From assembly GCA_038874655.1 (NCBI GenBank), contig JAVZBY010000003.1, forward strand, positions 22,718 through 86,717: a stretch of DNA of 64,000 nt, read 5' to 3'. The notes below the pieces were generated by a model. It saw nothing but the letters and a program-made list of their open reading frames with translations, made no database searches and was not told where the DNA came from. This DNA comes from Candidatus Woesearchaeota archaeon. Lineage in GTDB: Archaea; Nanobdellota; Nanobdellia; Woesearchaeales; GW2011-AR15. The position numbers and the translations under genes were made by a program. Positions 3,162-51,540 of this stretch are shown in pieces (the first letter of the stretch is position 1; the number at the start of each line of letters is the position of its first letter).

Positions 3162-6100
3162 AGTTGTTTTTAGAATTAAAAAAGGAACAAAAGCACTAAC
3201 AAGTGATGATAAGCCTATAAAACAAATAAAAATGAAATTAATTCCAAGACCAAAAGAGGAAATATTGCCACAAGATTTAAGTATAATGATAGGCCCAGTT
3301 CTTTATAGAATTGAGCCAGATGGTGCTAAATTTGATCCTCCTGTAGAATTAAGTTATTACTATCATGACCCTGATCCTAATGAAGAAACAAACGAAAAAA
3401 ATTTCATGTTAAGCTATTACAATTATTTATCAGACGGACAATTTGTTGCTTATGAAACAAGCGTTGATACTAACAAAAACCTTATAACAGCAAAAGTTCC
3501 TCATTTATCAGACCCAGTTCCTGTAAGTGATTGTGGCTCATCTGCTAAAACTTATAAATTAGAAGATATTTTTGTCCCTAATTGTGATTTGATAAATAGA
3601 GATACTGTTTTTACAATTGAATCTAAAAAGCAGTTATTTTTTCATATAAAGGATTTTTATTCAATATTTACAACAAGAAAAAAAAATGAAGAAAAATATT
3701 TAATAAAAGGCATAAATGGGCAAGTTATAGATTATATGGAAAAATGCCAATTAATTCAACCTATATTTACAGATGCTAATGGAGATAGTCAACTTAATTA
3801 CCCTAATGATGATCCAGAAAAAGATTTGGATAAAGTTTTGTTGAGAATATCATCTTATTATCCTTATTTATGTGATGAGACTTGTAAAAATAAAATCAGT
3901 TCTGGAGATTATACTGAAGTTTGTAAAAAACTATGCACTTCTGACACAGCAAATTTATGCAAAAAATATTTTATAAAAGATGTGCCTGATCAATCTGATA
4001 ATGTGGTATGGAGATGGTCTAATGATGGAAATTATTATGATTCAAACCCTGAATGGGGTGAATATTTCAAAACAATAAAAGGCATAAAAGAAGATGGCAC
4101 TTATTTTGAGCCAGAACCTGATGATAAATACAAAGGCAAAAAAATAACAGATGATGTTTTTTATGGAGATGGCATTAATGATGAATTTGCTAATAAGTTA
4201 TTACTTTATCCTTCTACTGAGGATATATATGATGGTGCTTACTTCCTTTGCAAACCTGAAAATGGCATGAAACCAGCAACTCCTAAGTATGCATGGGGTT
4301 ATGAAAATTTACAAAACTTTGGCGGCAGGGCAGAATTTAAATTTTTCTTTGATGAAAATTCTTGTTTTAATCCACATAAAACACAGAATAATAAAATTGT
4401 AATAACACATCATAAATATTTAAAAATCACAAACTTCAAAATAAACGACAACTCTTATCCATTGCCAGAAAAAGGAAAATCAAACTTTGCATTTGATTAT
4501 GTTGATAGTAATAGTGTTTATGAATTAACCTTAAAAGTAAAAGAAAATAAATATTGCGAAGGAACTGGTTGTTCACAAGACACTTATATAAAAGAAGGTG
4601 AAAATGTTGTTGAATTAGAATTTTCACTTGATGAAAAAGAATTAGCAAATTTAAAAGAAGGTGATACAATAAAAATAAGTGAATTAGTTGGAGATGGCTC
4701 TGTTTCATTAATTGGCAATGGATTTAAAGAACAAGCATGCACAATAGACCAAAGAAAAACTTATTTAACTAATTATAATTCAAAATGTTCTTTTGATACT
4801 GATAATGTTAATATAAATAATAATGAACTAACTAACGTATTAAATAAAATAACTGATGATAACAAAGCAATAAAAACTTCAAGTTTACTTGATTCAAAAG
4901 AAGTTAAACAATTTTATGCTGCAAATGGAGTTGAATTAACAACAGAAATGATGTTTACTTGCCCTACTGATGATAATAATATTGTATGTAAAAATGCACA
5001 AAAAGGATGTTATGATAAGAAAGAGACATATGTAGGTGATGTTATTGTTGATGTTGATACTATTTTTACTTATTTGGGTATGCAGTGTATTCCAACTTCT
5101 CCAAGTGATATGACTCCAAAATCAGGAACAAATCAACAAGCTAAGTGTTCTGAGGTTTTAGGTTATGAGTATGAAGATTTTGATAATAATGGAGATATTA
5201 CAAAATGCACAATAAACTGCCAATGGGACACTAGTGTTTGTAAAAAAAGAACAAATGATTTTAGTAATTATCAGTTTGCAGGCAAACCTGGAAGTGCTTG
5301 TGTTGGTGGAAAACCAAATGGTGTTTTAGATAAAGATGAGCAATGTGATCCTTTGGTTAATCCGCCAACTGAAAAAAAATGCAATCAATTAGATTCTAAT
5401 AGATATAAAGACACTGCAAATGTCATATTAACTTCGAACTACCATTGCAAAGAAGATTGCACATGGGATTATGTAGCAAGATGTGATTATTTGGCATTAG
5501 GAGATAGTGGAAAATGCACAAAAAAACCTGATGGATCTGAGAGTGTTGACAGTAATGAATTTTGTGATATAGACGATGACGGAACACATTTATTAAATGG
5601 TAAAACATGCACAGATTACAAAGGAATGCCAGATATAGGAAGCCTTTATTCTGGCGGTGTTTTAAAATGCAAAAATGATTGCACTTATGACTTTTCTGGC
5701 TGCATTAAAAAAGAATCTGCAAGATGCAGAATAATTAATGGTGAAAAAATAGAACCTCCTAATGGTCAGATTTCAAATACTATATGTTCTGACTTTTCAT
5801 GCACTTGTGAATGCAAAGATATGGAAGATAAAGATTTAGATGAAAAAGACTTTAAAACAACATGCGAATCTTTATGCCAAAACAGATATGGTGGGAAATT
5901 TATTTATTATTCAGCTGGAATTTCATACAGACAAGTATCAAATGATTTATGTAATATGCCTACCTGCTATGACACAGATCCTAATAATGACCCAACAATA
6001 TTAGGAACTGTACAGGTTAAGTATAAAGAGGGTGAAAATTGGAAAAGCGAAACAAAGACAGATGAATGTGAGACTGATGGAAAAAAAACAATAGAATATA

Positions 6101-42403: not shown

Positions 42404-43570
42404 TTAGTTATTTCTCTTTTTAAGAATAAAAATAATCAAAATTATATTCAATAAAATTAAAATTATAACACCTATAATTAAAATATTTAATTGAAATTTA
42501 TTTCCTTGTCCAATAACTTTTGCACTCACATAATTTTTAAAATTCACCGAATCTGGTGATACATAAGCAGTATAAGTTTTTTCAGAAATTTTATCTTCAT
42601 AAATAACCTTTGTAGAGAGCTCATATTCACCTATAGTTAAACCTTCTGTATTCCAATACGCATTCATAATTGAAGTTGATTTTTCATTAATACTAACAGG
42701 AATTGCATTAAAAGTTGAAATTAATTTATTATCTTTAAAAACATCAACTTTTCCTTCTGCCTTAATTTGCTTGTTCCATTTATTTCTTAAATAGATATCT
42801 AGTTTTGCAATTTGACCTATTTTAAAATTATTTATTTCTATTTTTTCAATTTCAACTTCTAAATTTCCAACATCAAATTTTTGATAGAATTCTAAAATCT
42901 TAGAATCATATTCTAATGTTGCTTCTAAAACATAGCTTCCAGAATGTTCAGTTTGCCAGGTTAAAATAAAACTTTCTTCTTTATTCGACTCTATTGACTT
43001 TGATTCTGATGTTGCTTTATATAATTCTTCATTTGTTGGACCCTTAATTACTAAATTAATTTTTGCATTTTCTATTTTTTCCTTTCCAAAATTTTTTATT
43101 GCAAATGTAAAAATAATAGGCTCATTAACTTTTGTATTTGTTATAAATAAATTACCCTCTGCATATTTTCCAGGATAGGGTACATTAACTATTATTTTAT
43201 GCATTACTGCAGGAGCTGCCATTATAACATCATTTTGCATTTCTCTAGGTAATTCCAAAACAATTAAAGAACATGATCTTTCACCTGGAGGTAATTCATT
43301 TGGTAGTTGAATCTTATAATTAATCCATGTTTCTTTATTTTCAATAATCATCGTTTCTTTATCAAGTGAAATATATTTTGCTAATTCTCCTTCTTTCGAA
43401 ATTATTATTTTAGTAGGTGTATCATCAACAACTACTCTAAAAGCCCCTTCTTGTTGAAATTGATTAAAATCAAACTTATTTTTAGCAGGAGCTATTCCTA
43501 ATCCAAAGATCATATTTATATTTACTAAAAACATAATTAACATAATAAATTTTAAAAATATTTTTCTCAT
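42404..43570 (-). CDS. Surface protein (388 aa) with N-terminal signal and C-terminal TM anchor; translationally coupled to the giant gene
   Basis: Its start ATG overlaps the stop of the 2485-aa gene (ATGA at 43567-43570); C-terminal NILIIGVIILILLNIILIIFIL then KKRNN. Confidence 0.5.
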   Translation of the reverse strand: MRKIFLKFIMLIMFLVNINMIFGLGIAPAKNKFDFNQFQQEGAFRVVVDDTPTKIIISKEGELAKYISLDKETMIIENKETWINYKIQLPNELPPGERSCSLIVLELPREMQNDVIMAAPAVMHKIIVNVPYPGKYAEGNLFITNTKVNEPIIFTFAIKNFGKEKIENAKINLVIKGPTNEELYKATSESKSIESNKEESFILTWQTEHSGSYVLEATLEYDSKILEFYQKFDVGNLEVEIEKIEINNFKIGQIAKLDIYLRNKWNKQIKAEGKVDVFKDNKLISTFNAIPVSINEKSTSIMNAYWNTEGLTIGEYELSTKVIYEDKISEKTYTAYVSPDSVNFKNYVSAKVIGQGNKFQLNILIIGVIILILLNIILIIFILKKRNN

Positions 43571-46500
43571 GCCTGCTCACCCACTATATAAATTGTTACA
43601 TATTTTGGGCCGCCAGGCTCATACATCGGAACTGTTATATTAATATCAATTTGTGCAGTATCATGTTCATCACTATAATTTAAATTTCTTAATAATGTGG
43701 AATTTGAAATTGATATATCTGTCATATTTGCCCATTCTGTTTGTGAATTTGCATAATCAAAAGAAGGCATTTCACTAGTATTATCTGCTTTATATCTAAA
43801 ATAAATTGTATTTAAAGGCGCCATTATAAATGGTGATTGATTAGCACCAATTCTTGTAATATTAACAACAATATTACCATTATTCTCTATTATTAGAGGT
43901 GGATAACCATTATCAGTATCTTTTGATTCTAAAATATTCATTATTCCAAAATCAATTGAATTAACAGTTAAATTTATACTTAAAAAAGATTCAATTGTAA
44001 AGTTCCATGCTAGACTCCATAGACTATAATTAAAACCATCATATGCCCGAACACTCCAATTAATTAGTCTATCAACACAAAAATCATAATTTGGTTGATA
44101 ACTTGTATCAGAAACATTAATACTAACATCTGGACCACATTCGAAAGTAGAGGAAAAACTAATATTTATTGTATAATTTATATCATCATAATCTAAATCT
44201 GAGCTATTAAACAGAAATAAAGGTTTTCTTTCATGTATAGTATGATTATTGTTTGTTGGGGTTATTAATATTGGAATAGTTGGTGGACTATTAACAATTG
44301 TTGTTTTTGTTGAATTATAATTACTTGAATCAATACCATCGTATGCTTTTATAGTGCAGTTCCATATTTCATTCTTTTTTGTATTAGAACTGGCTATAAA
44401 TGATATTAAAGTATTTGTGTTATTATTCACACTAACATTTCCTGATGAAAATAAATTAGTTCCATTATACCAAAAATATTCAACTCTTAAAGAGGTGTTT
44501 AAATCATCAACGATAGTTGCATAACAATTTAAATTTGATGTGGTATTTGGCTCATTAGGTAAAATTTGTATGTTTGAAACTCTTGGAGGGGAATTTAAAT
44601 TAATTCTTACCTTTGTACTATTTTTAGTAATTCCATCTTGATAACCATCATTAGGTGTTACTGAGCAAATTAGTTCATCGTTTAAATTAAACGCATATCT
44701 TAATAATTCATTATTAGTTCTATTTAATATACCATAATTATATTCATTTAGAATTTCTTCATCAGATAAAATATAATTATATATTTTGATTTCATCTATA
44801 AACCCATTATAAGGTGCTTTTCCTGTATTATGTAAAGCCCAATTTGACAAACCACTAGATGCACCAATAACTAAATTTAAAATTGAGTTTGAAATATTAC
44901 TATTCACTTGAGAAGAATTTTTATTCATACCATTAACATATAATTTAAAAATATCTCTATTTAAAGTTAATAACAAATGTGTCCAATTATTTTGTTTTAT
45001 CGTCTCATTACTAATCACTTCATTTCCAAACTTTCTAATAATTAATGCTGAATCTGTTGTGTTTATTGAATATCTACCACCTAATATTAAATTTTCCCTG
45101 GAATCAAAGGTACCTACTTGAAAAACATCCTTATAATTAGATAAATCTAAAGTAAAATTATAAACCTGTGAACCTGTTTTATTCAATTTAAATACAAAAA
45201 TAACATTATTTGTTGAATTTAACCAATAAAAACCTAGGCCATAAATATCATTATTTGAATCAATTAAAATTTTCTGTATGCTATCATTAAATGGTGTTGG
45301 ATTTAAAATATAATTCCATAAGTTATTACCATTTTTATCAAACTTCATCACATTAATATAGCTATCTATTGGTTGATTTGCGATTCCTGCAATTATTAAA
45401 TTATCTTCACTATCTACCTTCATATCTTGAAGTGTATCATTATATATTGTTGGGTTTGTAGTAATATTGAAAAGATTCACTCCTGTAGGTGAAAATTTCA
45501 CTATTCTATACTGAAAATTACCTAAAAGTTGATCATATCCTCCTATATAATACGAACCATCTAATGCCTTAACAATAATATTAGCAGAATCAATTCCTGA
45601 ACTAATTTGAGGAGTATAATTCCACAAATTTACACCATTTTCATTAAAAGCTGAAACAAACCAATCATAAACAGTTGTTGCTTTAATCCCCACTGCAATT
45701 ATCAATGTATCATTATAAACTAAAACATCATTATAAAGATCTGTTCCTGATGTCGGATTAAATGTTCTATTCCATAAATAAGTTCCTGTAGAATTATATT
45801 TAACTAAATAATGACTATGCCCTACTACTGAATCATATATATATCCTGCTACATAAATGTTATTTCTTGAATCTACATCTACACCTAAATATCTATCATG
45901 ACCTAAATTTGGATAAGTATAATTAAAAAGTAAAGTTCCATTTGGTGAAAATTTCATAATTATTTGATCAATAGAATAAGGGTTATTATTACCTGCTCCA
46001 ACAGCTATAAAATTATCTTCATTATCAACTATTAAATCTGTTAAATATTCATAATATGTATCATCATTTAAATCATTTAAAAAGTAATTTTTTCTAAATT
46101 CATATAAAGTTTTGTTTTTATTATTTTCATTTAAAGAAACTCCTGGATAACCATTAAGTAAAAATATTGAATATATTCCATTACTCAGAATATTATCTAT
46201 TACATCAAACCTTGTAGGCTTTATCCATAATGAAATAGAGATATTATTACTTTTTAGTAAATTTGTATTATTAACATAAATAAAATTAGTGCCATTAAAA
46301 TTATATCCTCCAAATACCTTACCAAATTTTCTTGACCAATTTAAATTATTTGAAAAATTTATACTAGTATTATAGCCACTGTAATCTTTTGTAAAAGTAT
46401 TATTACTTCCTCCTTCAAACGGCAAATACAACAAATAAATACTTTGATTATTTTTATACCAAGTAGTTATATTTACAACTTGATCTCCATCTGCATCAAA

Positions 46501-49500
46501 AACATTATTAGCATTACAAGTCAAATTATTAAAAGTATAAGCAGGATCAGGCGTGATATAAGGATTATCATGTGTTGGTGCATCATTAAGTTTTATTTTC
46601 ACACTTGAGCTGTTTTTAGTTATGCCATCCTGATAACCATCATTGGGTGTTATAGAACATTTCCATTCATCTTCAAAATTAGTATTTGTAAAAGATATAA
46701 TATTACTTAATTTTCCTGAAATTCCTAAAAGATAATCATTATATATCTGCTGATCTGATAATACAAAATTATACACCTTAACCTCATCAATTGTACCATT
46801 AAAAAATTGTGTATTTGGTAAACCTATTCCCCCTCTTCTACCTATGTTGATAGATTTATTTACAGTATAAATAACATTACCATTTGCTTGCTTACTATTA
46901 TCCAAAACCCCATTTACATATAAAAGTAATTTCGAATTATCATATACTCCTACTATATAATACCATTTTCTTTTTCCTAATACTGTATTAGAGGTAATAT
47001 TTTGAGATGCAAAACCATTGTTATTCGATGCGAAAAACCTAACTCTACTTTCATTAGAAATTTGTAATCCATAGCCATCATCTCCCCCACCATCTTCATC
47101 AGTACTTATAATCATTTGATAAGTATTATTATCAAAAAGATATATCCATGCAGAAACACTAAAATTATTATAAGGCCTTAAATTAGGATTTGAAGGAAAA
47201 ACAATATATTGATAATTTCCATTAAACACATAAGCACCTCCTATTATACCTGCAGTTGTGTCAAATGTAGCATTAACCACAGATGCATTAGTAAAACTTA
47301 CATAATCTAATGTTGAACCATTTTTTGAATATGTTCCAGTTATTGAACCTCCTTCAAACGGCAAATACAACAAATAAATACTTTGATTATTTTTATACCA
47401 AGTAGTTATATTTACAACTTGATCTCCCTCTGCATCAAAAACATTATTAGCATTACAAGTCAAATCACTAAAAATATTTGCTGGATTAGGTGTGATATAA
47501 GGATCATCATGTGTTGGTGCAGAAGGATATATTTTAACAGAACTACTGTTTTTAGTTATCCCATCTACATAGCCATCATTTGGAGTTATAGAGCATTTAA
47601 TTTCATCATTTAATTTTAAATTTAAATATTTTAAATCTAAAAATTGTTCCTTATTTGAGAAAGAAAAAGGATAAATTATTGAATTAATATATGAAATAGA
47701 GAGAGGAATATTAAAAATTTTAACTTCATCAATAATACCATTAAAAAATTCTGTATTAGGTTGATAAGTACCACCTATTCTACCTATATTTATAGAATTA
47801 TTAACAGTATATACTACATTTCCATTTCCTATTTTTCTACCAACTAATAAACCATTAATATAAAGAGATATTTCAGAATTATTATAAACTCCAACAATAT
47901 TATACCATATATTTTTTCCTAAAGTAATATTTGAAGTTACATTTTGTAAAGCATAGCCATTAGAATTTAAAACTGCAAAGCTAACTCTTCCTTGATCAGT
48001 TATTCTTAAAAAATATCCATCATCATTACCTCCATCACTATCTGAAGAAATAATTGTTTGATTTGTATTATTTGAATTTAAACTTATCCAAACTGAGATA
48101 CTAAAATTATTATAAGGCCTTAAATCATTATTAGAAGGCACGGAGATATAATCATAATCCCCATCAAAAAAATATGCTCCTCCTATTATACCTGAAAACT
48201 GCAAATATGTTGCATTTACTACACTAACATTTTTTAAAGAAACATAATCTCTTGTAGAACCATTTGAAAAATTATCGCCACTAGTTGAACCTCCTTCAAA
48301 AGGTAAATTTAATGAATAAATACTTTTATTATTAATATACCATGTTGTTATGTTTCTAATAAAATGATCCTCATAATCTATTAGATTTGTAGTATCACAA
48401 AAGATTGTTTTATTTAAAGTTGGTGTTTGTGGGTTAATTTGTGGATTATCATGTATAGGTTCTGTATTATTAATAAAAAACCACAATCCTTCTTCGTAAA
48501 AATAAATTATATCTGGAAACTCTCCTATTTCAGAGGAATATATAATTCTATCACTATTATTAAACTCTATACAATGAACTATTAGATCTATAGCTTGAGA
48601 TGCTAAAATATGATAATATACTGAAATATTATGTTCTCTAACAACACAAGATTGTGGTAAAGTAATATTGTTATTAAGATTAGAAATAATTTTAACATTG
48701 GTAACATTATTTGGTTTATAATAAATTGAGGAGATATAATAATCATTTGCTTCACTACCAGTAAACCAATTACCATCAAAGAAAGCTTGTGCATTAACAC
48801 ATCCTCCTACTGCATTACAACCACTTATATTACTAAATTCAACATAATAATAATAACTAGGATCATAAGCATAATCACTTACATAAGCTAAATCATTTTC
48901 AAACTCAAAAAGCAAAGTAGCATAACCAGCTTTAATCATGTAATTTTTTAGATAAGCAGTTTGATTACATTCAAAATTTGGAATAAACAATTTTTTGATT
49001 TTAACAGAGTTTTCAGATAAATCAGAGTAATTATAAGTGATATTATTAACATCAACTATTAATAATTTATCTAGGAGAGGGTAATTACCACAACTTAGGT
49101 TTAAAAATAACATTTCATCAAAAGTTTGATTATTATCAACAGAGATTTCAGTCCAATTAGCATTAGTAGAGCTAATAGATAAATTAGCAATTCCGCTAGT
49201 ATTAAAAGCCACAATCCATATTTCATTATCTTTTAGATAGGTGTAAGGATTCAGTACAATTATAGAAATTTCAAAAGTTTGATTACTTAGATGAGGCACA
49301 ATCCATTCAATTTTATCAATTAAGCCATTATCATTAGTATCAAAATAATTAACATTTTCAAACAATATTTTCTGATCATCTTTAAACCAATAAACCTTTA
49401 TATTTTCTTTTTTAGATTCTTTAATATTAGTATAAGCTAGGACATTTTCATAATGCAAATCTGATGAAATAACAACATGTTTTTTATTTTCATTTAATAT

Positions 49501-51024
49501 AATTTCATCAGCTTTAGGTGGTTCAGTATAGAAAGATAATTCTAAGATCTCACTTTCATGATTACTTTCAGATAAATTTTCAGAATCATTTTTCTCAAAG
49601 ACTAAAACAACATCATTAACATTATCTAAATTCAAGTTTATGTTATTAAGATTTTGTAATTCAGAATTAAGTTCATTCAATTTATTTAACAATAAATTAG
49701 CTTTATCTTTGCTTACAGGTTTTTCTAATTCTTTTAACTCTGATTTAATTTTTTTAACTTTATTAAATTGTTCAACATCAATTAAGTTTTTATCTGCATA
49801 CACATATGGCTTAATATCATCATTACTAAAAGAGATGTTAAAAGCAGATTTAGGCAATATAGTATAATTAGTAATAGACAAATTAATTTTCTTTTTCCAT
49901 AAAACTGGCTCATTAATTTTAGCACTATAATTAAAATCAATAACACCAATTTCCTCAGAACTTAGATTCAAAGTTAAATTAATTATTTGCAATGTTTCAT
50001 TAACTAAAGTTTCATTCAAAGTTTCATTTAAGAAAGTTTCATTTAAACTCTCATTAACAAAAACATTTTCAATAAAAGTGTATTCAATTGAACTTAAATT
50101 TAAAACAGCATTCTCAACTATAATCTGTAAAACTATTTCATCGCCATAATTATACAATTTGCATGTTTCTAAACAATAATTACTGAATAAAAGCACTCTT
50201 TCTTCAATAGTTATATTTTCACTAGCATTACTCTCTGTGATTGTTTCATTAATAATTATTTCTGGAATAATTACATCTGTAAAATTGGTTTCATTAAACT
50301 CATATGCTATATTTGTATTGTTATCTATAATATTTTCTTCAATTATAGTTTCATTTAATATTGTTGTTTCATTTAAACTTTGATTTAAACTTATTTCAAT
50401 TATTTCCTCATTAATAACTTCATGACTATTATTTAAAGAAATATTTTCTAAATTAGAACTTTCTCCAACAGAAAAATTTTCATTAATTATATTATTTTCT
50501 TCAATGGTTTGAGTTTCTTCTGTAATTTCAATTAACTCTTGATTATTAACAGAGGGATTAACCTCATTATTAGTTAAATTATTTTCTTGATTATATTCTT
50601 GAACAATATCTTCAACAACTAAACCTGTTAAAATATTTTTTCTATTAAGTTCATTTGAATCAAAAACCAATTTTGAATTATTACTTTTATCAATCAATAA
50701 AACCTTTACAGAACCATTTCCTATTATAGAACCAGTTATTTTTAGAGATGTTAAATTTCCATTAACATTAAATCTTAGAACATTATTATCATAAAACTCT
50801 TGATTAACATTAATAACTTCTTTTATTTCTGTATTGCCAAAAATTAAAAACCCTGTTAAATTTTGACCAAATAAATTATAAAATAAACCTATTGAAAATA
50901 TTGTTATTATAAATAATAACACATACGACTCATGCTTCATTAACCTCTTTATTTTTCTATCTCTTTGCTCTCTCCTCTCTGCCTCTCTAATTGCCTTTAT
51001 AAACTCTTGTAAGGGTGATGTCAT
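43567..51024 (-). CDS. Giant (2485 aa) signal-anchored surface protein with an Asn-rich N-glycan linker, three LamG/concanavalin-like modules and SBBP-type beta-propeller repeats
   Basis: N-terminal cytoplasmic basic stretch then TM YVLLFIITIFSIGLFYNLF. Repeated NETL/NETF sequons. Three copies of a roughly 310-aa module contain GGAY(F/V)F(D/N)G...SVW(I/Y)...DEVK(I/V)(F/Y)N (LamG-like). Several NIYVAGY...LVKYN..G..LWN repeats (SBBP-like). SD GGGGTGAT lies 5 nt before the ATG. Confidence 0.8.
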   Translation of the reverse strand: MTSPLQEFIKAIREAERREQRDRKIKRLMKHESYVLLFIITIFSIGLFYNLFGQNLTGFLIFGNTEIKEVINVNQEFYDNNVLRFNVNGNLTSLKITGSIIGNGSVKVLLIDKSNNSKLVFDSNELNRKNILTGLVVEDIVQEYNQENNLTNNEVNPSVNNQELIEITEETQTIEENNIINENFSVGESSNLENISLNNSHEVINEEIIEISLNQSLNETTILNETIIEENIIDNNTNIAYEFNETNFTDVIIPEIIINETITESNASENITIEERVLLFSNYCLETCKLYNYGDEIVLQIIVENAVLNLSSIEYTFIENVFVNESLNETFLNETLNETLVNETLQIINLTLNLSSEEIGVIDFNYSAKINEPVLWKKKINLSITNYTILPKSAFNISFSNDDIKPYVYADKNLIDVEQFNKVKKIKSELKELEKPVSKDKANLLLNKLNELNSELQNLNNINLNLDNVNDVVLVFEKNDSENLSESNHESEILELSFYTEPPKADEIILNENKKHVVISSDLHYENVLAYTNIKESKKENIKVYWFKDDQKILFENVNYFDTNDNGLIDKIEWIVPHLSNQTFEISIIVLNPYTYLKDNEIWIVAFNTSGIANLSISSTNANWTEISVDNNQTFDEMLFLNLSCGNYPLLDKLLIVDVNNITYNYSDLSENSVKIKKLFIPNFECNQTAYLKNYMIKAGYATLLFEFENDLAYVSDYAYDPSYYYYVEFSNISGCNAVGGCVNAQAFFDGNWFTGSEANDYYISSIYYKPNNVTNVKIISNLNNNITLPQSCVVREHNISVYYHILASQAIDLIVHCIEFNNSDRIIYSSEIGEFPDIIYFYEEGLWFFINNTEPIHDNPQINPQTPTLNKTIFCDTTNLIDYEDHFIRNITTWYINNKSIYSLNLPFEGGSTSGDNFSNGSTRDYVSLKNVSVVNATYLQFSGIIGGAYFFDGDYDYISVPSNNDLRPYNNFSISVWISLNSNNTNQTIISSDSDGGNDDGYFLRITDQGRVSFAVLNSNGYALQNVTSNITLGKNIWYNIVGVYNNSEISLYINGLLVGRKIGNGNVVYTVNNSINIGRIGGTYQPNTEFFNGIIDEVKIFNIPLSISYINSIIYPFSFSNKEQFLDLKYLNLKLNDEIKCSITPNDGYVDGITKNSSSVKIYPSAPTHDDPYITPNPANIFSDLTCNANNVFDAEGDQVVNITTWYKNNQSIYLLYLPFEGGSITGTYSKNGSTLDYVSFTNASVVNATFDTTAGIIGGAYVFNGNYQYIVFPSNPNLRPYNNFSVSAWIYLFDNNTYQMIISTDEDGGGDDGYGLQISNESRVRFFASNNNGFASQNITSNTVLGKRKWYYIVGVYDNSKLLLYVNGVLDNSKQANGNVIYTVNKSINIGRRGGIGLPNTQFFNGTIDEVKVYNFVLSDQQIYNDYLLGISGKLSNIISFTNTNFEDEWKCSITPNDGYQDGITKNSSSVKIKLNDAPTHDNPYITPDPAYTFNNLTCNANNVFDADGDQVVNITTWYKNNQSIYLLYLPFEGGSNNTFTKDYSGYNTSINFSNNLNWSRKFGKVFGGYNFNGTNFIYVNNTNLLKSNNISISLWIKPTRFDVIDNILSNGIYSIFLLNGYPGVSLNENNKNKTLYEFRKNYFLNDLNDDTYYEYLTDLIVDNEDNFIAVGAGNNNPYSIDQIIMKFSPNGTLLFNYTYPNLGHDRYLGVDVDSRNNIYVAGYIYDSVVGHSHYLVKYNSTGTYLWNRTFNPTSGTDLYNDVLVYNDTLIIAVGIKATTVYDWFVSAFNENGVNLWNYTPQISSGIDSANIIVKALDGSYYIGGYDQLLGNFQYRIVKFSPTGVNLFNITTNPTIYNDTLQDMKVDSEDNLIIAGIANQPIDSYINVMKFDKNGNNLWNYILNPTPFNDSIQKILIDSNNDIYGLGFYWLNSTNNVIFVFKLNKTGSQVYNFTLDLSNYKDVFQVGTFDSRENLILGGRYSINTTDSALIIRKFGNEVISNETIKQNNWTHLLLTLNRDIFKLYVNGMNKNSSQVNSNISNSILNLVIGASSGLSNWALHNTGKAPYNGFIDEIKIYNYILSDEEILNEYNYGILNRTNNELLRYAFNLNDELICSVTPNDGYQDGITKNSTKVRINLNSPPRVSNIQILPNEPNTTSNLNCYATIVDDLNTSLRVEYFWYNGTNLFSSGNVSVNNNTNTLISFIASSNTKKNEIWNCTIKAYDGIDSSNYNSTKTTIVNSPPTIPILITPTNNNHTIHERKPLFLFNSSDLDYDDINYTINISFSSTFECGPDVSINVSDTSYQPNYDFCVDRLINWSVRAYDGFNYSLWSLAWNFTIESFLSINLTVNSIDFGIMNILESKDTDNGYPPLIIENNGNIVVNITRIGANQSPFIMAPLNTIYFRYKADNTSEMPSFDYANSQTEWANMTDISISNSTLLRNLNYSDEHDTAQIDINITVPMYEPGGPKYVTIYIVGEQA
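46409..46526. repeat. Intragenic direct repeat, copy 1 (118 nt, 117/118 identical to 47348..47465); part of a roughly 940-bp tandem module repeat
   Basis: Seen directly: cctccttcaaacggcaaatacaacaaataaatactttgattatttttataccaagtagttatatttacaacttgatctccatctgcatcaaaaacattattagcattacaagtcaaat. Confidence 0.85.
47348..47465. repeat. Intragenic direct repeat, copy 2 (see 46409..46526); a third, diverged copy lies near 48290
   Basis: Same sequence with a single a/c difference; flanking roughly 150 nt remain about 80% similar. Confidence 0.85.
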
Positions 51025-51236
51025 TTTTTATCACCCCTCTTCTTCTTTAATGCCCTATTATATATTGTCCAAATAGTTCTATCATCTCTATTCAAAGAAT
51101 CTGCAATATCATGATAACTCATATTAAGAGTTTCTTTCATGTAAAAAACAACAGATTCCATAAAAGAAAAATCTCTATTATTAAATATAGACAGAGGTAT
51201 ATTTATTTCATTATTATTCTTTTTACCCACCCTCAC
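51021..51236 (-). CDS. Small HTH DNA-binding protein (sigma-70 region-4/LuxR-like helix-turn-helix), first gene of the surface-protein operon; uses a GTG or an internal start
   Basis: ETLNMSYHDIADSLNRDDRTIWTIYNRALKKK shows an HTH pattern like sigma region 4. The stop overlaps the giant gene start (ATGA) and its 3' end encodes the giant gene's SD. The annotated start is GTG with no upstream SD, so the transcript may be leaderless. Confidence 0.45.
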   Translation of the reverse strand: MRVGKKNNNEINIPLSIFNNRDFSFMESVVFYMKETLNMSYHDIADSLNRDDRTIWTIYNRALKKKRGDKK

Positions 51237-51243
51237 AAGAAAT

Positions 51244-51350
51244 AACTTACATTGTAAGTATTTATACTTTTTGGTTTTTTACTTACATTGTAAGTATTAT
51301 AAAAAAATAAATTAAAATAAAAAATAAAATATTTACTTACAATGTAAGTA
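51244..51350. promoter_or_regulatory. Three copies of a 17-bp palindrome TACTTACA(A/T)TGTAAGTA (51244-51260, 51280-51296, 51334-51350) in the divergent region between the HTH gene and tRNA-Asn
   Basis: Seen directly; half-sites TACTTACA/TGTAAGTA are exact reverse complements; centre-to-centre spacings are 36 and 54 bp; copy 1 ends 7 nt from the GTG start of the HTH ORF. Confidence 0.55.
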
Positions 51351-51427
51351 TAAATCAATTTAAAAAATCAAACAAAAAACTCAGTAAATTATTTAAATTA
51401 ATATCTAATCCATTAATAAATATTAAT

Positions 51428-51500
51428 GCCTCGATAGCTTAGTAGGTAGAGCGATGGACTGTTAATCCATAGGTCGCCAGTTCGAGTCTGGCTCGAGGCG
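51428..51500 (+). tRNA. tRNA-Asn (anticodon GUU), 73 nt, no encoded CCA
   Basis: Acceptor stem GCCTCGA/TCGAGGC plus discriminator G. D-arm AGCTTAGTAGGTAGAGC. Anticodon stem-loop ATGGA-CTGTTAA-TCCAT, giving GTT. T-arm GCCAG-TTCGAGT-CTGGC. Followed by an oligo-T tract. Confidence 0.85.
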
Positions 51501-51540
51501 CTTTTTAAAAAATTTTTTAGAAAAAACATAAAATTTCTTT

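What the first reader, a model, noticed from the sequence alone, without database searches (positions are those of the whole stretch)
51237..51427. Three perfect 17-bp palindromes between the HTH gene and tRNA-Asn
The sequence TACTTACA-N-TGTAAGTA occurs three times (51244-51260, 51280-51296, 51334-51350) in a 190-bp divergent region. It is a textbook dimeric transcription-factor operator. The nearest copy ends 7 nt from the start of the adjacent HTH ORF, which itself lacks an SD and may be leaderless. This suggests autoregulation and control of the downstream giant-protein operon. Alternatively the sites could serve the tRNA promoter or act as a recombination or attachment sequence.
Basis: seen in the sequence. 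Interest (0 to 1): 0.6.

Follow-up and report, generated by a model that had tools for sequence, protein, structure and literature searches.

The report
Operator sites of a DPANN regulator
The three palindromes are very probably the binding sites of the small DNA-binding protein encoded next to them; this site-and-protein pair is conserved across Woesearchaeota, has not been described, and always sits in front of a giant cell-surface protein gene.

Summary
Copies 2 and 3 are perfect 17-mers; copy 1 differs at its outermost base, leaving a perfect 15-bp core. The window comes from a Woesearchaeota (DPANN) archaeon.

The same 17-mer, TACTTACAWTGTAAGTA, is unchanged in relatives whose GC content ranges from 27 to 69%. 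It clusters in 2-6 copies directly upstream of homologues of the adjacent 71-aa gene:
- 31 of 32 motif-selected loci that contain the gene have it directly upstream.
- 42 of 74 protein-selected loci have it, against 10 sites in the other 318 kb.

The protein is a stand-alone sigma-70 region-4-like helix-turn-helix. Upstream of these genes, each palindrome lies just downstream of a BRE/TATA-like element. The predicted transcription start falls at the palindrome's 3' edge, the usual position of an archaeal repressor operator. The regulator's stop codon overlaps the start of a giant membrane-anchored surface-protein gene in nearly all loci. In other lineages the same domain is fused to the cytoplasmic C-terminus of such giants.

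The links to tRNA-Asn, attachment sites and RNA hairpins are not supported. Binding and the direction of regulation are inferred, not shown. I found no published description.

The parts
51244..51260 (.). Palindrome 1 (proximal). It reads AACTTACATTGTAAGTA on the plus strand and TACTTACAATGTAAGTT in the sense of the HTH gene. It lies between the predicted TATA box and the predicted transcription start of the HTH gene.
   Evidence: conserved in L134, L133 and L001
51280..51296 (.). Palindrome 2, a perfect 17-mer, centred 36 bp from palindrome 1. It is directly preceded, in the HTH sense, by TTTTTATAA.
51334..51350 (.). Palindrome 3 (distal), a perfect 17-mer, centred 54 bp from palindrome 2. It lies about 40 bp from the conserved tRNA-Asn promoter block.
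51261..51274 (-). Predicted core promoter P1 of the HTH operon. In the HTH sense it reads CCAAAAAG-TATAAA: an A-rich BRE-like element followed by a TATA box. The predicted transcription start is near 51237-51238.
   Evidence: Read from the sequence. The block AAAAA-N-CAAAAA-R-TATAAA is conserved in L134 and L133. The general BRE/TATA asymmetry is shown. The transcription start is inferred from the usual archaeal TATA-to-start distance of about 26 nt.
51021..51236 (-). Gene for a 71-aa stand-alone sigma-70 region-4-like HTH protein. It starts at GTG 51236, with GTG 51230 as an alternative.
43567..51024 (-). Gene for a 2485-aa giant surface protein with an N-terminal cytoplasmic peptide and a transmembrane helix. 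Its ATG overlaps the HTH stop codon (ATGA).
51013..51038 (-). Junction hairpin. The SD-like GGGGTGAT inside the last HTH codons pairs with codons 2-4 of the giant gene, and the ATG sits in the loop. This is a probable translational-coupling device.
51428..51501 (+). tRNA-Asn (GTT), the divergent neighbour. It has its own conserved promoter block at about 51380-51412. It is probably not controlled by the palindromes.

Best explanation
The three palindromes are operators for a dimer of the 71-aa sigma-region-4-like HTH protein encoded immediately downstream on the minus strand. In the HTH-gene orientation each palindrome lies just downstream of a BRE/TATA-like element. It therefore occupies roughly -18 to -2 relative to the predicted transcription start, and for the proximal copy that start coincides with the GTG (a leaderless or near-leaderless mRNA). 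Protein bound there would let TBP/TFB bind but block RNA polymerase recruitment. The most likely function is negative autoregulation of a two-gene operon: the HTH gene followed by the translationally coupled 2485-aa surface-protein gene. The two upstream copies would add cooperative binding, tandem promoters, or both. The same protein probably also binds single sites near other genes in related genomes, forming a regulon. Shown here: the sequence facts, the conservation, the co-occurrence in both search directions, the promoter geometry, the fold and the operon overlap. Inferred: that this protein is the binder, that it binds as a dimer, and that the effect is repression.
For: (1) Only three sites occur in the 64-kb window, all in this 191-bp spacer.
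(2) An exact-motif scan of GTDB genomes gave 120 blocks. Of these, 76 are archaeal (Woese-/Nanoarchaeota labels) and 44 bacterial. 32 archaeal blocks hold an HTH homologue, and in 31 of them the motif lies less than 300 bp upstream. No bacterial or viral hit holds one.
(3) The converse test used 74 protein-selected metagenome loci. 42 carry sites (usually 2-6) within 450 bp upstream, against 10 sites in the other 318 kb. Most loci without sites encode two-domain or giant-fused forms.
(4) All 61 imperfect sites lie within 300 bp of a perfect one.
(5) The motif is identical in loci of 27-69% GC, and the recognition-helix segment N49-T57 (NRDDRTIWT) is invariant among the close homologues of alignment A1 and nearly so in the wider family.
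(6) Among 169 oriented sites, a TATA-like hexamer occurs in the upstream flank of 107 and in the downstream flank of only 15-16. An A-rich BRE-like element lies at -20 to -15.
(7) The AF2 model (pLDDT 84) matches sigma region 4, and Pfam Sigma70_r4_2 gives E=1.5e-5.
(8) Single ORFs with two intact HTH domains also carry the motif upstream, which fits two domains per palindrome.
(9) The HTH stop overlaps a large downstream ORF in nearly all of about 70 loci.
Against: There is no binding, footprint or transcript data. The TATA box and transcription start are predicted in DNA of about 25% GC, where TATA-like strings are common; the clear cases come from GC-rich relatives. About 43% of homologous genes lack the motif upstream. 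Most motif sites away from HTH genes lack an adjacent TATA (42 of 57), so the mechanism there must differ. One four-site cluster lies between convergent gene ends (L083), which a simple promoter-operator model does not explain. No recognition-helix/site covariation could be found because both are nearly invariant.
Confidence: 0.72

Rival explanations
1. The palindromes are operators of a different, unlinked global regulator. The HTH-giant operon is merely its most heavily targeted promoter.
For: The motif also occurs without a nearby HTH gene in 44 of 76 archaeal blocks. It lies next to ValRS/RFC, TBP/Rpp30, Asn synthase, RIO kinase and TraB genes and inside truD. 32 of 74 HTH homologues lack it upstream.
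Against: Multi-copy clusters lie mainly at HTH genes. The motif's taxonomic range matches that of the HTH family. The recognition helix is as invariant as the site. Self-linked operators are the rule for small autoregulated factors. No other conserved DNA-binding gene travels with the sites.
Confidence: 0.12
2. The 17-mer is an intrinsic promoter element between TATA and the transcription start, recognised by the basal machinery (TFB, TFE or RNAP). On this reading the three copies are simply three strong tandem promoters.
For: The fixed position sits 2-5 nt downstream of a TATA-like box, with the predicted start at the site's 3' edge. In L002 whole 45-bp TATA-plus-site units are tandemly duplicated.
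Against: Perfect dyad symmetry is not expected of a directional core-promoter element. Most sites away from HTH genes have no adjacent TATA. Sites also occur inside truD and between convergent genes.
Confidence: 0.07
3. The repeats act at the RNA level. Copies pair with one another in a 5' leader and control translation or stability.
For: A transcript covering copies 2 and 3 folds into a 17-bp stem, with a z-score of -3.06.
Against: Any repeated palindrome gives this result. A single copy cannot form a stable hairpin because its loop would be 1 nt. Spacing varies from 15 to 126 bp, and many loci hold a single copy. No Rfam family matches. The proximal copy lies upstream of the predicted transcription start.
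Confidence: 0.03
4. The sites serve the tRNA-Asn promoter, or they are attachment/recombination sites or origin-recognition boxes.
For: tRNA-Asn is divergent from the sites here and in L001, L008, L096 and L134. L002 retains a 5' tRNA-Asn fragment. Clusters of repeats in AT-rich spacers superficially resemble origins.
Against: Most motif clusters have no tRNA nearby. The tRNA has its own conserved TATA block about 40 bp from copy 3. The TATA asymmetry points toward the HTH gene. No integrase or orc1/cdc6 neighbour was seen. Several loci occur per genome. The GC-skew turn at about 54 kb follows gene orientation and lies 2.5 kb away.
Confidence: 0.03

Closest known systems
Archaeal repressors whose operators lie between or over TATA and the transcription start (MDR1, LrpA, Phr, TrmB/TrmBL1, NrpR)
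   Same: A palindromic operator sits immediately downstream of BRE/TATA. The factor's own gene is first in the controlled operon. The predicted mechanism is steric block of RNA polymerase recruitment. Possible dual action from upstream sites at other genes would resemble SurR and TrmBL1. This comparison rests on my knowledge of those systems.
   Different: Those factors have winged-helix, Lrp/AsnC, ArsR or TrmB folds. This one is a bare sigma-region-4-like four-helix domain of about 70 aa with no ligand-binding domain. The operator is invariant across a whole phylum-level lineage.
Sigma-70 region 4 / ECF sigma factor with its co-transcribed membrane anti-sigma factor
   Same: The fold and weak sequence similarity match region 4. 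The gene is co-transcribed and translationally coupled with a single-pass membrane protein that has a short cytoplasmic N-terminus and a large external domain.
   Different: There is no region 2 and no bacterial RNA polymerase. The site is a dyad, not a -35 element. No known anti-sigma domain was detected in the partner. This protein is therefore not a sigma factor.
GerE / LuxR-type stand-alone HTH regulators
   Same: Size is similar (about 70 aa), as is the four-helix HTH related to sigma region 4. Binding to an inverted repeat of about 18-20 bp as a dimer is also similar.
   Different: No Pfam GerE match appeared at E<=0.1. The host is archaeal, so the promoter logic is archaeal.
Membrane-tethered one-component regulators (ToxR, CadC)
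   Same: In other lineages the same HTH domain, in 2-4 copies, follows a transmembrane helix and a poly-lysine stretch at the cytoplasmic end of a giant surface protein.
   Different: In the window the HTH is a separate soluble protein. ToxR and CadC have winged-helix OmpR-type domains at the N-terminus.

Membership tests
Pfam PF08281 Sigma70_r4_2 (sigma-70 region 4 HTH domain) | Score at or above the Pfam gathering threshold | tested here: not met
   25.0 bits against a cutoff of 25.7, E=1.5e-5, residues 29-65. This is marginally below threshold. Several homologues carry the precomputed PF08281 label.
Pfam PF08281 Sigma70_r4_2 (sigma-70 region 4 HTH domain) | Region-4 fold: compact helical bundle with an HTH and a C-terminal recognition helix | tested here: met
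   The AF2 model has pLDDT 83.9 and four helices. The best Foldseek PDB matches are almost all sigma region 4, for example SigR r4 5fgm with TM 0.65/0.71 and probability about 1.0. E-values are only 0.08-0.7 because the domain is short.
Bona fide sigma-70-family sigma factor | Region 2 (core binding, -10 recognition) present, acting with bacterial RNA polymerase | tested here: not met
   The protein has 71 aa and only region 4 matches. NCBIfam sigma models align only to their last approximately 40 residues, far below cutoff. The organism is an archaeon.
GerE/LuxR C-terminal HTH (PF00196) | Match to the family profile | tested here: not met
   Not among the Pfam hits at E<=0.1.
Autoregulated operator-repressor pair (archaeal type) | Dyad-symmetric sites conserved upstream of the regulator's own gene in orthologous loci | tested here: met
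Autoregulated operator-repressor pair (archaeal type) | Operator overlaps or lies downstream of TATA, upstream of the transcription start | tested here: inconclusive
   TATA-like hexamers occur in 107 of 169 upstream flanks against 15-16 downstream flanks, with an unambiguous arrangement in GC-rich relatives. However, the TATA box and transcription start are predicted, not mapped.
Autoregulated operator-repressor pair (archaeal type) | The gene product binds the sites and lowers transcription | not testable with these tools
   This needs EMSA or footprinting and in vitro transcription.
ECF sigma / anti-sigma module | Partner protein carries a recognisable anti-sigma domain | tested here: not met
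   Pfam and NCBIfam find no anti-sigma domain in the 2485-aa protein. Only the gene order, the overlap and the membrane topology are analogous.
Archaeal replication origin (ORB repeats) | Repeats flank an unwinding element next to orc1/cdc6, at one or few loci per genome | tested here: not met
   The neighbours are the HTH gene and tRNA. Several motif loci occur per genome, for example the JBDRET, CAZHRT and NZBB assemblies.
tRNA promoter element / tRNA-linked attachment site | Consistent adjacency to a tRNA gene | tested here: not met
   A tRNA lies within 600 bp of the motif in only 4 of 76 archaeal blocks, and only one of those is tRNA-Asn.

The most novel reading that the evidence does not exclude
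The HTH and the giant surface protein form an archaeal counterpart of a sigma/anti-sigma or membrane-tethered signalling module. The giant protein would hold the region-4-like factor at the membrane, either through its conserved cytoplasmic N-terminal peptide or, in the fused forms, covalently. It would release the factor on contact with a host cell. The invariant 17-mer would be the read-out. That read-out would cover the module's own promoter and a lineage-wide regulon that includes ValRS/RFC, TBP/Rpp30, Asn synthase and truD. This would explain the 'sigma-70 genes without anti-sigma factors' reported for Woesearchaeota (PMC8204110).
Probability: 0.25. Interest if true: 0.85.

Novelty: new variant of a known kind. 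Interest (0 to 1): 0.66.

Why it matters
Gene regulation in DPANN archaea is almost unstudied because hardly any are cultured. This finding offers a concrete, testable pair: a roughly 70-aa protein and a 17-bp site conserved across Woesearchaeota/Nanoarchaeota. The family has at least 1,814 clusters at 50% identity. It is tied genetically to the giant surface proteins thought to mediate host attachment.

It probably also explains an open remark in the literature. 'Sigma-70' genes are prevalent in Woesearchaeota, with no anti-sigma factor and no known control (PMC8204110). On the present evidence these are not sigma factors. They are region-4-only operator-binding proteins coupled or fused to membrane giants.

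The invariant site could also be used to chart a regulon directly from metagenomes.

Tried and rejected
- **Solved structures:** a PDB sequence search with the family profile found nothing meaningful.
- **Literature:** searches for the motif string, for Woesearchaeota transcription factors and for membrane-tethered archaeal factors found no prior description. The supplement that could link fam00359 of PMC8204110 to this family is not held.
- **Known RNAs:** the Rfam scan of the spacer found only the tRNA.
- **Bacterial promoter scan:** it is not applicable to an archaeon and gave chance-level hits.
- **Viral contigs:** 22 isolated single sites, with no HTH gene and no clusters. I treated these as a chance-level control.
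- **Variant palindromes:** I looked upstream of motif-less homologues to test helix/site covariation. No alternative dyad emerged and the recognition helix is unchanged.
- **SD-led start:** I considered an SD-led start for the HTH gene at the GAGGGTGGG string. No start codon follows at a suitable distance, and the G-rich string encodes the conserved N-terminal (M)GKK.
- **Origin of replication:** rejected on neighbourhood and copy number.

Full report
**Observation.** The spacer between the minus-strand HTH ORF (51021-51236) and tRNA-Asn (51428-51501) is 191 bp. It holds AACTTACATTGTAAGTA at 51244-51260, TACTTACATTGTAAGTA at 51280-51296 and TACTTACAATGTAAGTA at 51334-51350. Two copies are perfect 17-bp palindromes. 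The proximal copy has one outer mismatch, so its perfect core is 15 bp. With up to three mismatches allowed, the rest of the 64-kb window has one match where about one is expected. The window is about 25% GC. The closest protein matches are from Candidatus Woesearchaeota, so archaeal transcription rules apply.

**The neighbouring protein.**
- The 71-aa product scores 25.0 bits on Pfam Sigma70_r4_2 (E=1.5e-5), just under the 25.7-bit cutoff. It aligns only to the last ~40 residues of NCBIfam sigma models.
- An AlphaFold2 model (pLDDT 83.9, four helices) finds sigma region 4 domains as its best PDB matches, with TM about 0.65-0.7.
- It has no region 2, so it is not a sigma factor.
- The recognition-helix segment N49-T57 (NRDDRTIWT) is invariant among the 21 sequences of alignment A1 and nearly so in the wider family, where a few homologues carry N, E, Q or V substitutions.
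- The family is large: 1,814 representatives of 50%-identity clusters at E<=1e-10.

- 76 blocks are archaeal by record title: Woesearchaeota, Nanoarchaeota, or 'uncultured Methanosarcinales' bins. 44 are bacterial.
- 32 archaeal blocks contain an HTH homologue. In 31 of them the motif lies within 300 bp upstream of it.
- No bacterial block contains a homologue, and only two have a second site.
- 22 viral-contig hits are single sites without the gene.
- The loci span 27-69% GC, yet the 17-mer is the same.
- Across these loci there are 127 perfect, 39 one-mismatch and 22 two-mismatch sites. All 61 imperfect ones lie within 300 bp of a perfect one.
- Spacings peak at 31-32, 36, 41-46, 52-54 and 73-74 bp.

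**Gene to motif.** A protein-driven scan of metagenome contigs gave 80 loci that were not selected for the motif.
- Of 74 loci with at least 150 bp upstream, 42 have sites (usually 2-6) within 450 bp upstream. The remaining 318 kb holds 10 sites, most of them just beyond the 450-bp limit.
- The loci without sites mostly encode 173-200-aa proteins with a degenerate first domain, or giant fusions.
- In the window's near relatives (L001, L134, L133), an alignment of the spacer shows the palindromes as conserved islands. Also conserved are an AAAAA-N-CAAAAA-R-TATAAA block before the proximal copy and a separate block next to the tRNA.

**Geometry and mechanism.**
- GC-rich relatives show the arrangement plainly: a TTTATATA-like box, then 2-5 nt, then the palindrome, repeated in tandem and always on the side away from the HTH gene.
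- Over 169 oriented sites, a TATA-like hexamer lies in the 14-nt upstream flank of 107 and in the downstream flank of 15-16. An A-rich BRE-like stretch lies at -20 to -15.
- With the usual archaeal TATA-to-start distance of about 26 nt (established knowledge), the start falls at the 3' edge of each palindrome. In the window this is about 51237-51238 for copy 1, right at the GTG.
- A protein bound between TATA and the start is the classic archaeal way to block polymerase recruitment. I therefore infer negative autoregulation.
- Single ORFs carrying two intact copies of the domain, with the motif upstream, fit two domains per dyad.
- The direction of regulation is inferred only.

**The operon.**
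- The HTH stop overlaps the giant gene's ATG (AAAAAATGACA). An SD-like GGGGTGAT lies in the last HTH codons.
- The same 4-nt overlap with a large ORF (575 to more than 2,398 aa, often truncated by the end of the locus) occurs in the great majority of about 70 loci.
- Many of these proteins share residues 498-708 of the window's giant protein.
- In the close clade they also share an N-terminal 'PLKEFI' peptide followed by a transmembrane helix.

**Sites elsewhere.** In 44 archaeal blocks the motif has no HTH gene nearby. It recurs:
- between ValRS and RFC-large;
- near TBP/Rpp30, Asn synthase, RIO kinase and TraB;
- in front of giant-protein homologues;
- inside truD.

Most of these sites lack an adjacent TATA (42 of 57), so any effect there must work differently. 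This looks like a regulon rather than a generic repeat. It also keeps open the rival that another factor binds the site.

**Rivals.**
- tRNA-Asn adjacency is confined to the window's relatives, and the tRNA has its own conserved promoter block.
- RNA pairing between copies is an automatic property of repeated palindromes.
- Rfam finds nothing but the tRNA.
- No origin or integrase context was seen.

**Comparison and novelty.** The logic is that of a known kind, an autoregulated factor with dyad operators in its own promoter. The factor, however, is a bare sigma-region-4-like domain in an archaeon. The site is invariant across a phylum-level group, and the module is welded to giant surface proteins. 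I found no paper that describes it. Castelle et al. 2021 noted 'sigma-70' genes prevalent in Woesearchaeota with no anti-sigma factor and unknown control (PMC8204110). That is probably this family, though I could not verify the identity.

Noticed in passing
P0021, P0027, P0036, P0037, P0039 and 12 others; L155:1-3399, L171:1-3354, L204:3-2417: In other lineages, 2-4 copies of the same HTH domain are fused in frame to the C-terminus of giant proteins of 700-5,919 aa. The order is: N-terminal transmembrane helix, huge ectodomain, a conserved 'YST..G.WTIRI' hydrophobic helix, a poly-K/R stretch, then the HTH repeats. This is a membrane-tethered DNA-binding domain on a giant surface protein, and I found no description of it.
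   Followed up: partly
window 51013-51038 (minus strand); L002, L008, L132, L133, L134 junctions: A hairpin pairs the giant gene's SD (GGTGA) with its codons 2-4, leaving the ATG in the loop. The pairing is kept with different sequences in relatives: GGTGAT/ATCACC, GGTGAG/CTCACC, GAGGTGA/TCACCTC and AAAGG/CCTTT. 11 of 47 junctions fold with z below -2. It suggests that translation of the giant protein is obligatorily coupled to translation of the HTH.
   Followed up: partly
L002:4860-5000, L008:4935-5000, L019, L038, L091: Many homologues were called as 44-46 aa starting from an internal Met. The N-terminal 'IPLxIFxxRxLSF' segment is nevertheless conserved at the protein level (7 synonymous against 2 non-synonymous changes between the window and L008). 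In these five loci no ATG, GTG or TTG precedes it after the in-frame stop. This points to non-canonical initiation, perhaps at ATA or ATT.
   Followed up: partly
L039, L053, L058, L062, L071, L086 and L045 (truD genes): The 17-mer sits at the same place inside truD in seven species. In six it is read as YLQCK, but in L045 it is read in another frame as TYNVS. Conservation is therefore at the DNA level, not the peptide level. Its function there is unknown.
   Followed up: partly
L083:4339-4454: Four perfect sites (spacing 31, 32 and 36 bp) lie between the 3' ends of two convergent genes, a Trm5-like gene and the PolD large subunit. This is not a promoter context, and the operator model does not explain it.
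   Followed up: no
window 51428-51501; L032, L050, L102, L130: The motif lies upstream of Asn-synthase genes in four genomes and next to tRNA-Asn here and in L008, L096 and L134. The giant proteins are very rich in Asn (N-x-S/T). A link to asparagine supply is possible, but it may be coincidence.
   Followed up: no
L002:4549-4568: A 5' fragment of tRNA-Asn (GCCTCAATAGCTTAGTAATG) remains beside the palindrome array, where relatives have the intact gene. In the same locus identical 45-bp TATA-plus-site units are tandemly amplified across an assembly gap.
   Followed up: no
L020:4744-4794: Three sites overlap or abut one another (starts at 4744, 4759 and 4777) in front of a 727-aa secreted protein gene. 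No HTH gene lies between the sites and that gene.
   Followed up: no
L021, L028, L036, L038 and about 20 other loci: Many motif- and HTH-bearing contigs are labelled 'uncultured Methanosarcinales archaeon' (binchicken bins), although they carry the Woesearchaeota-type module. The taxonomic label is probably wrong.
   Followed up: no
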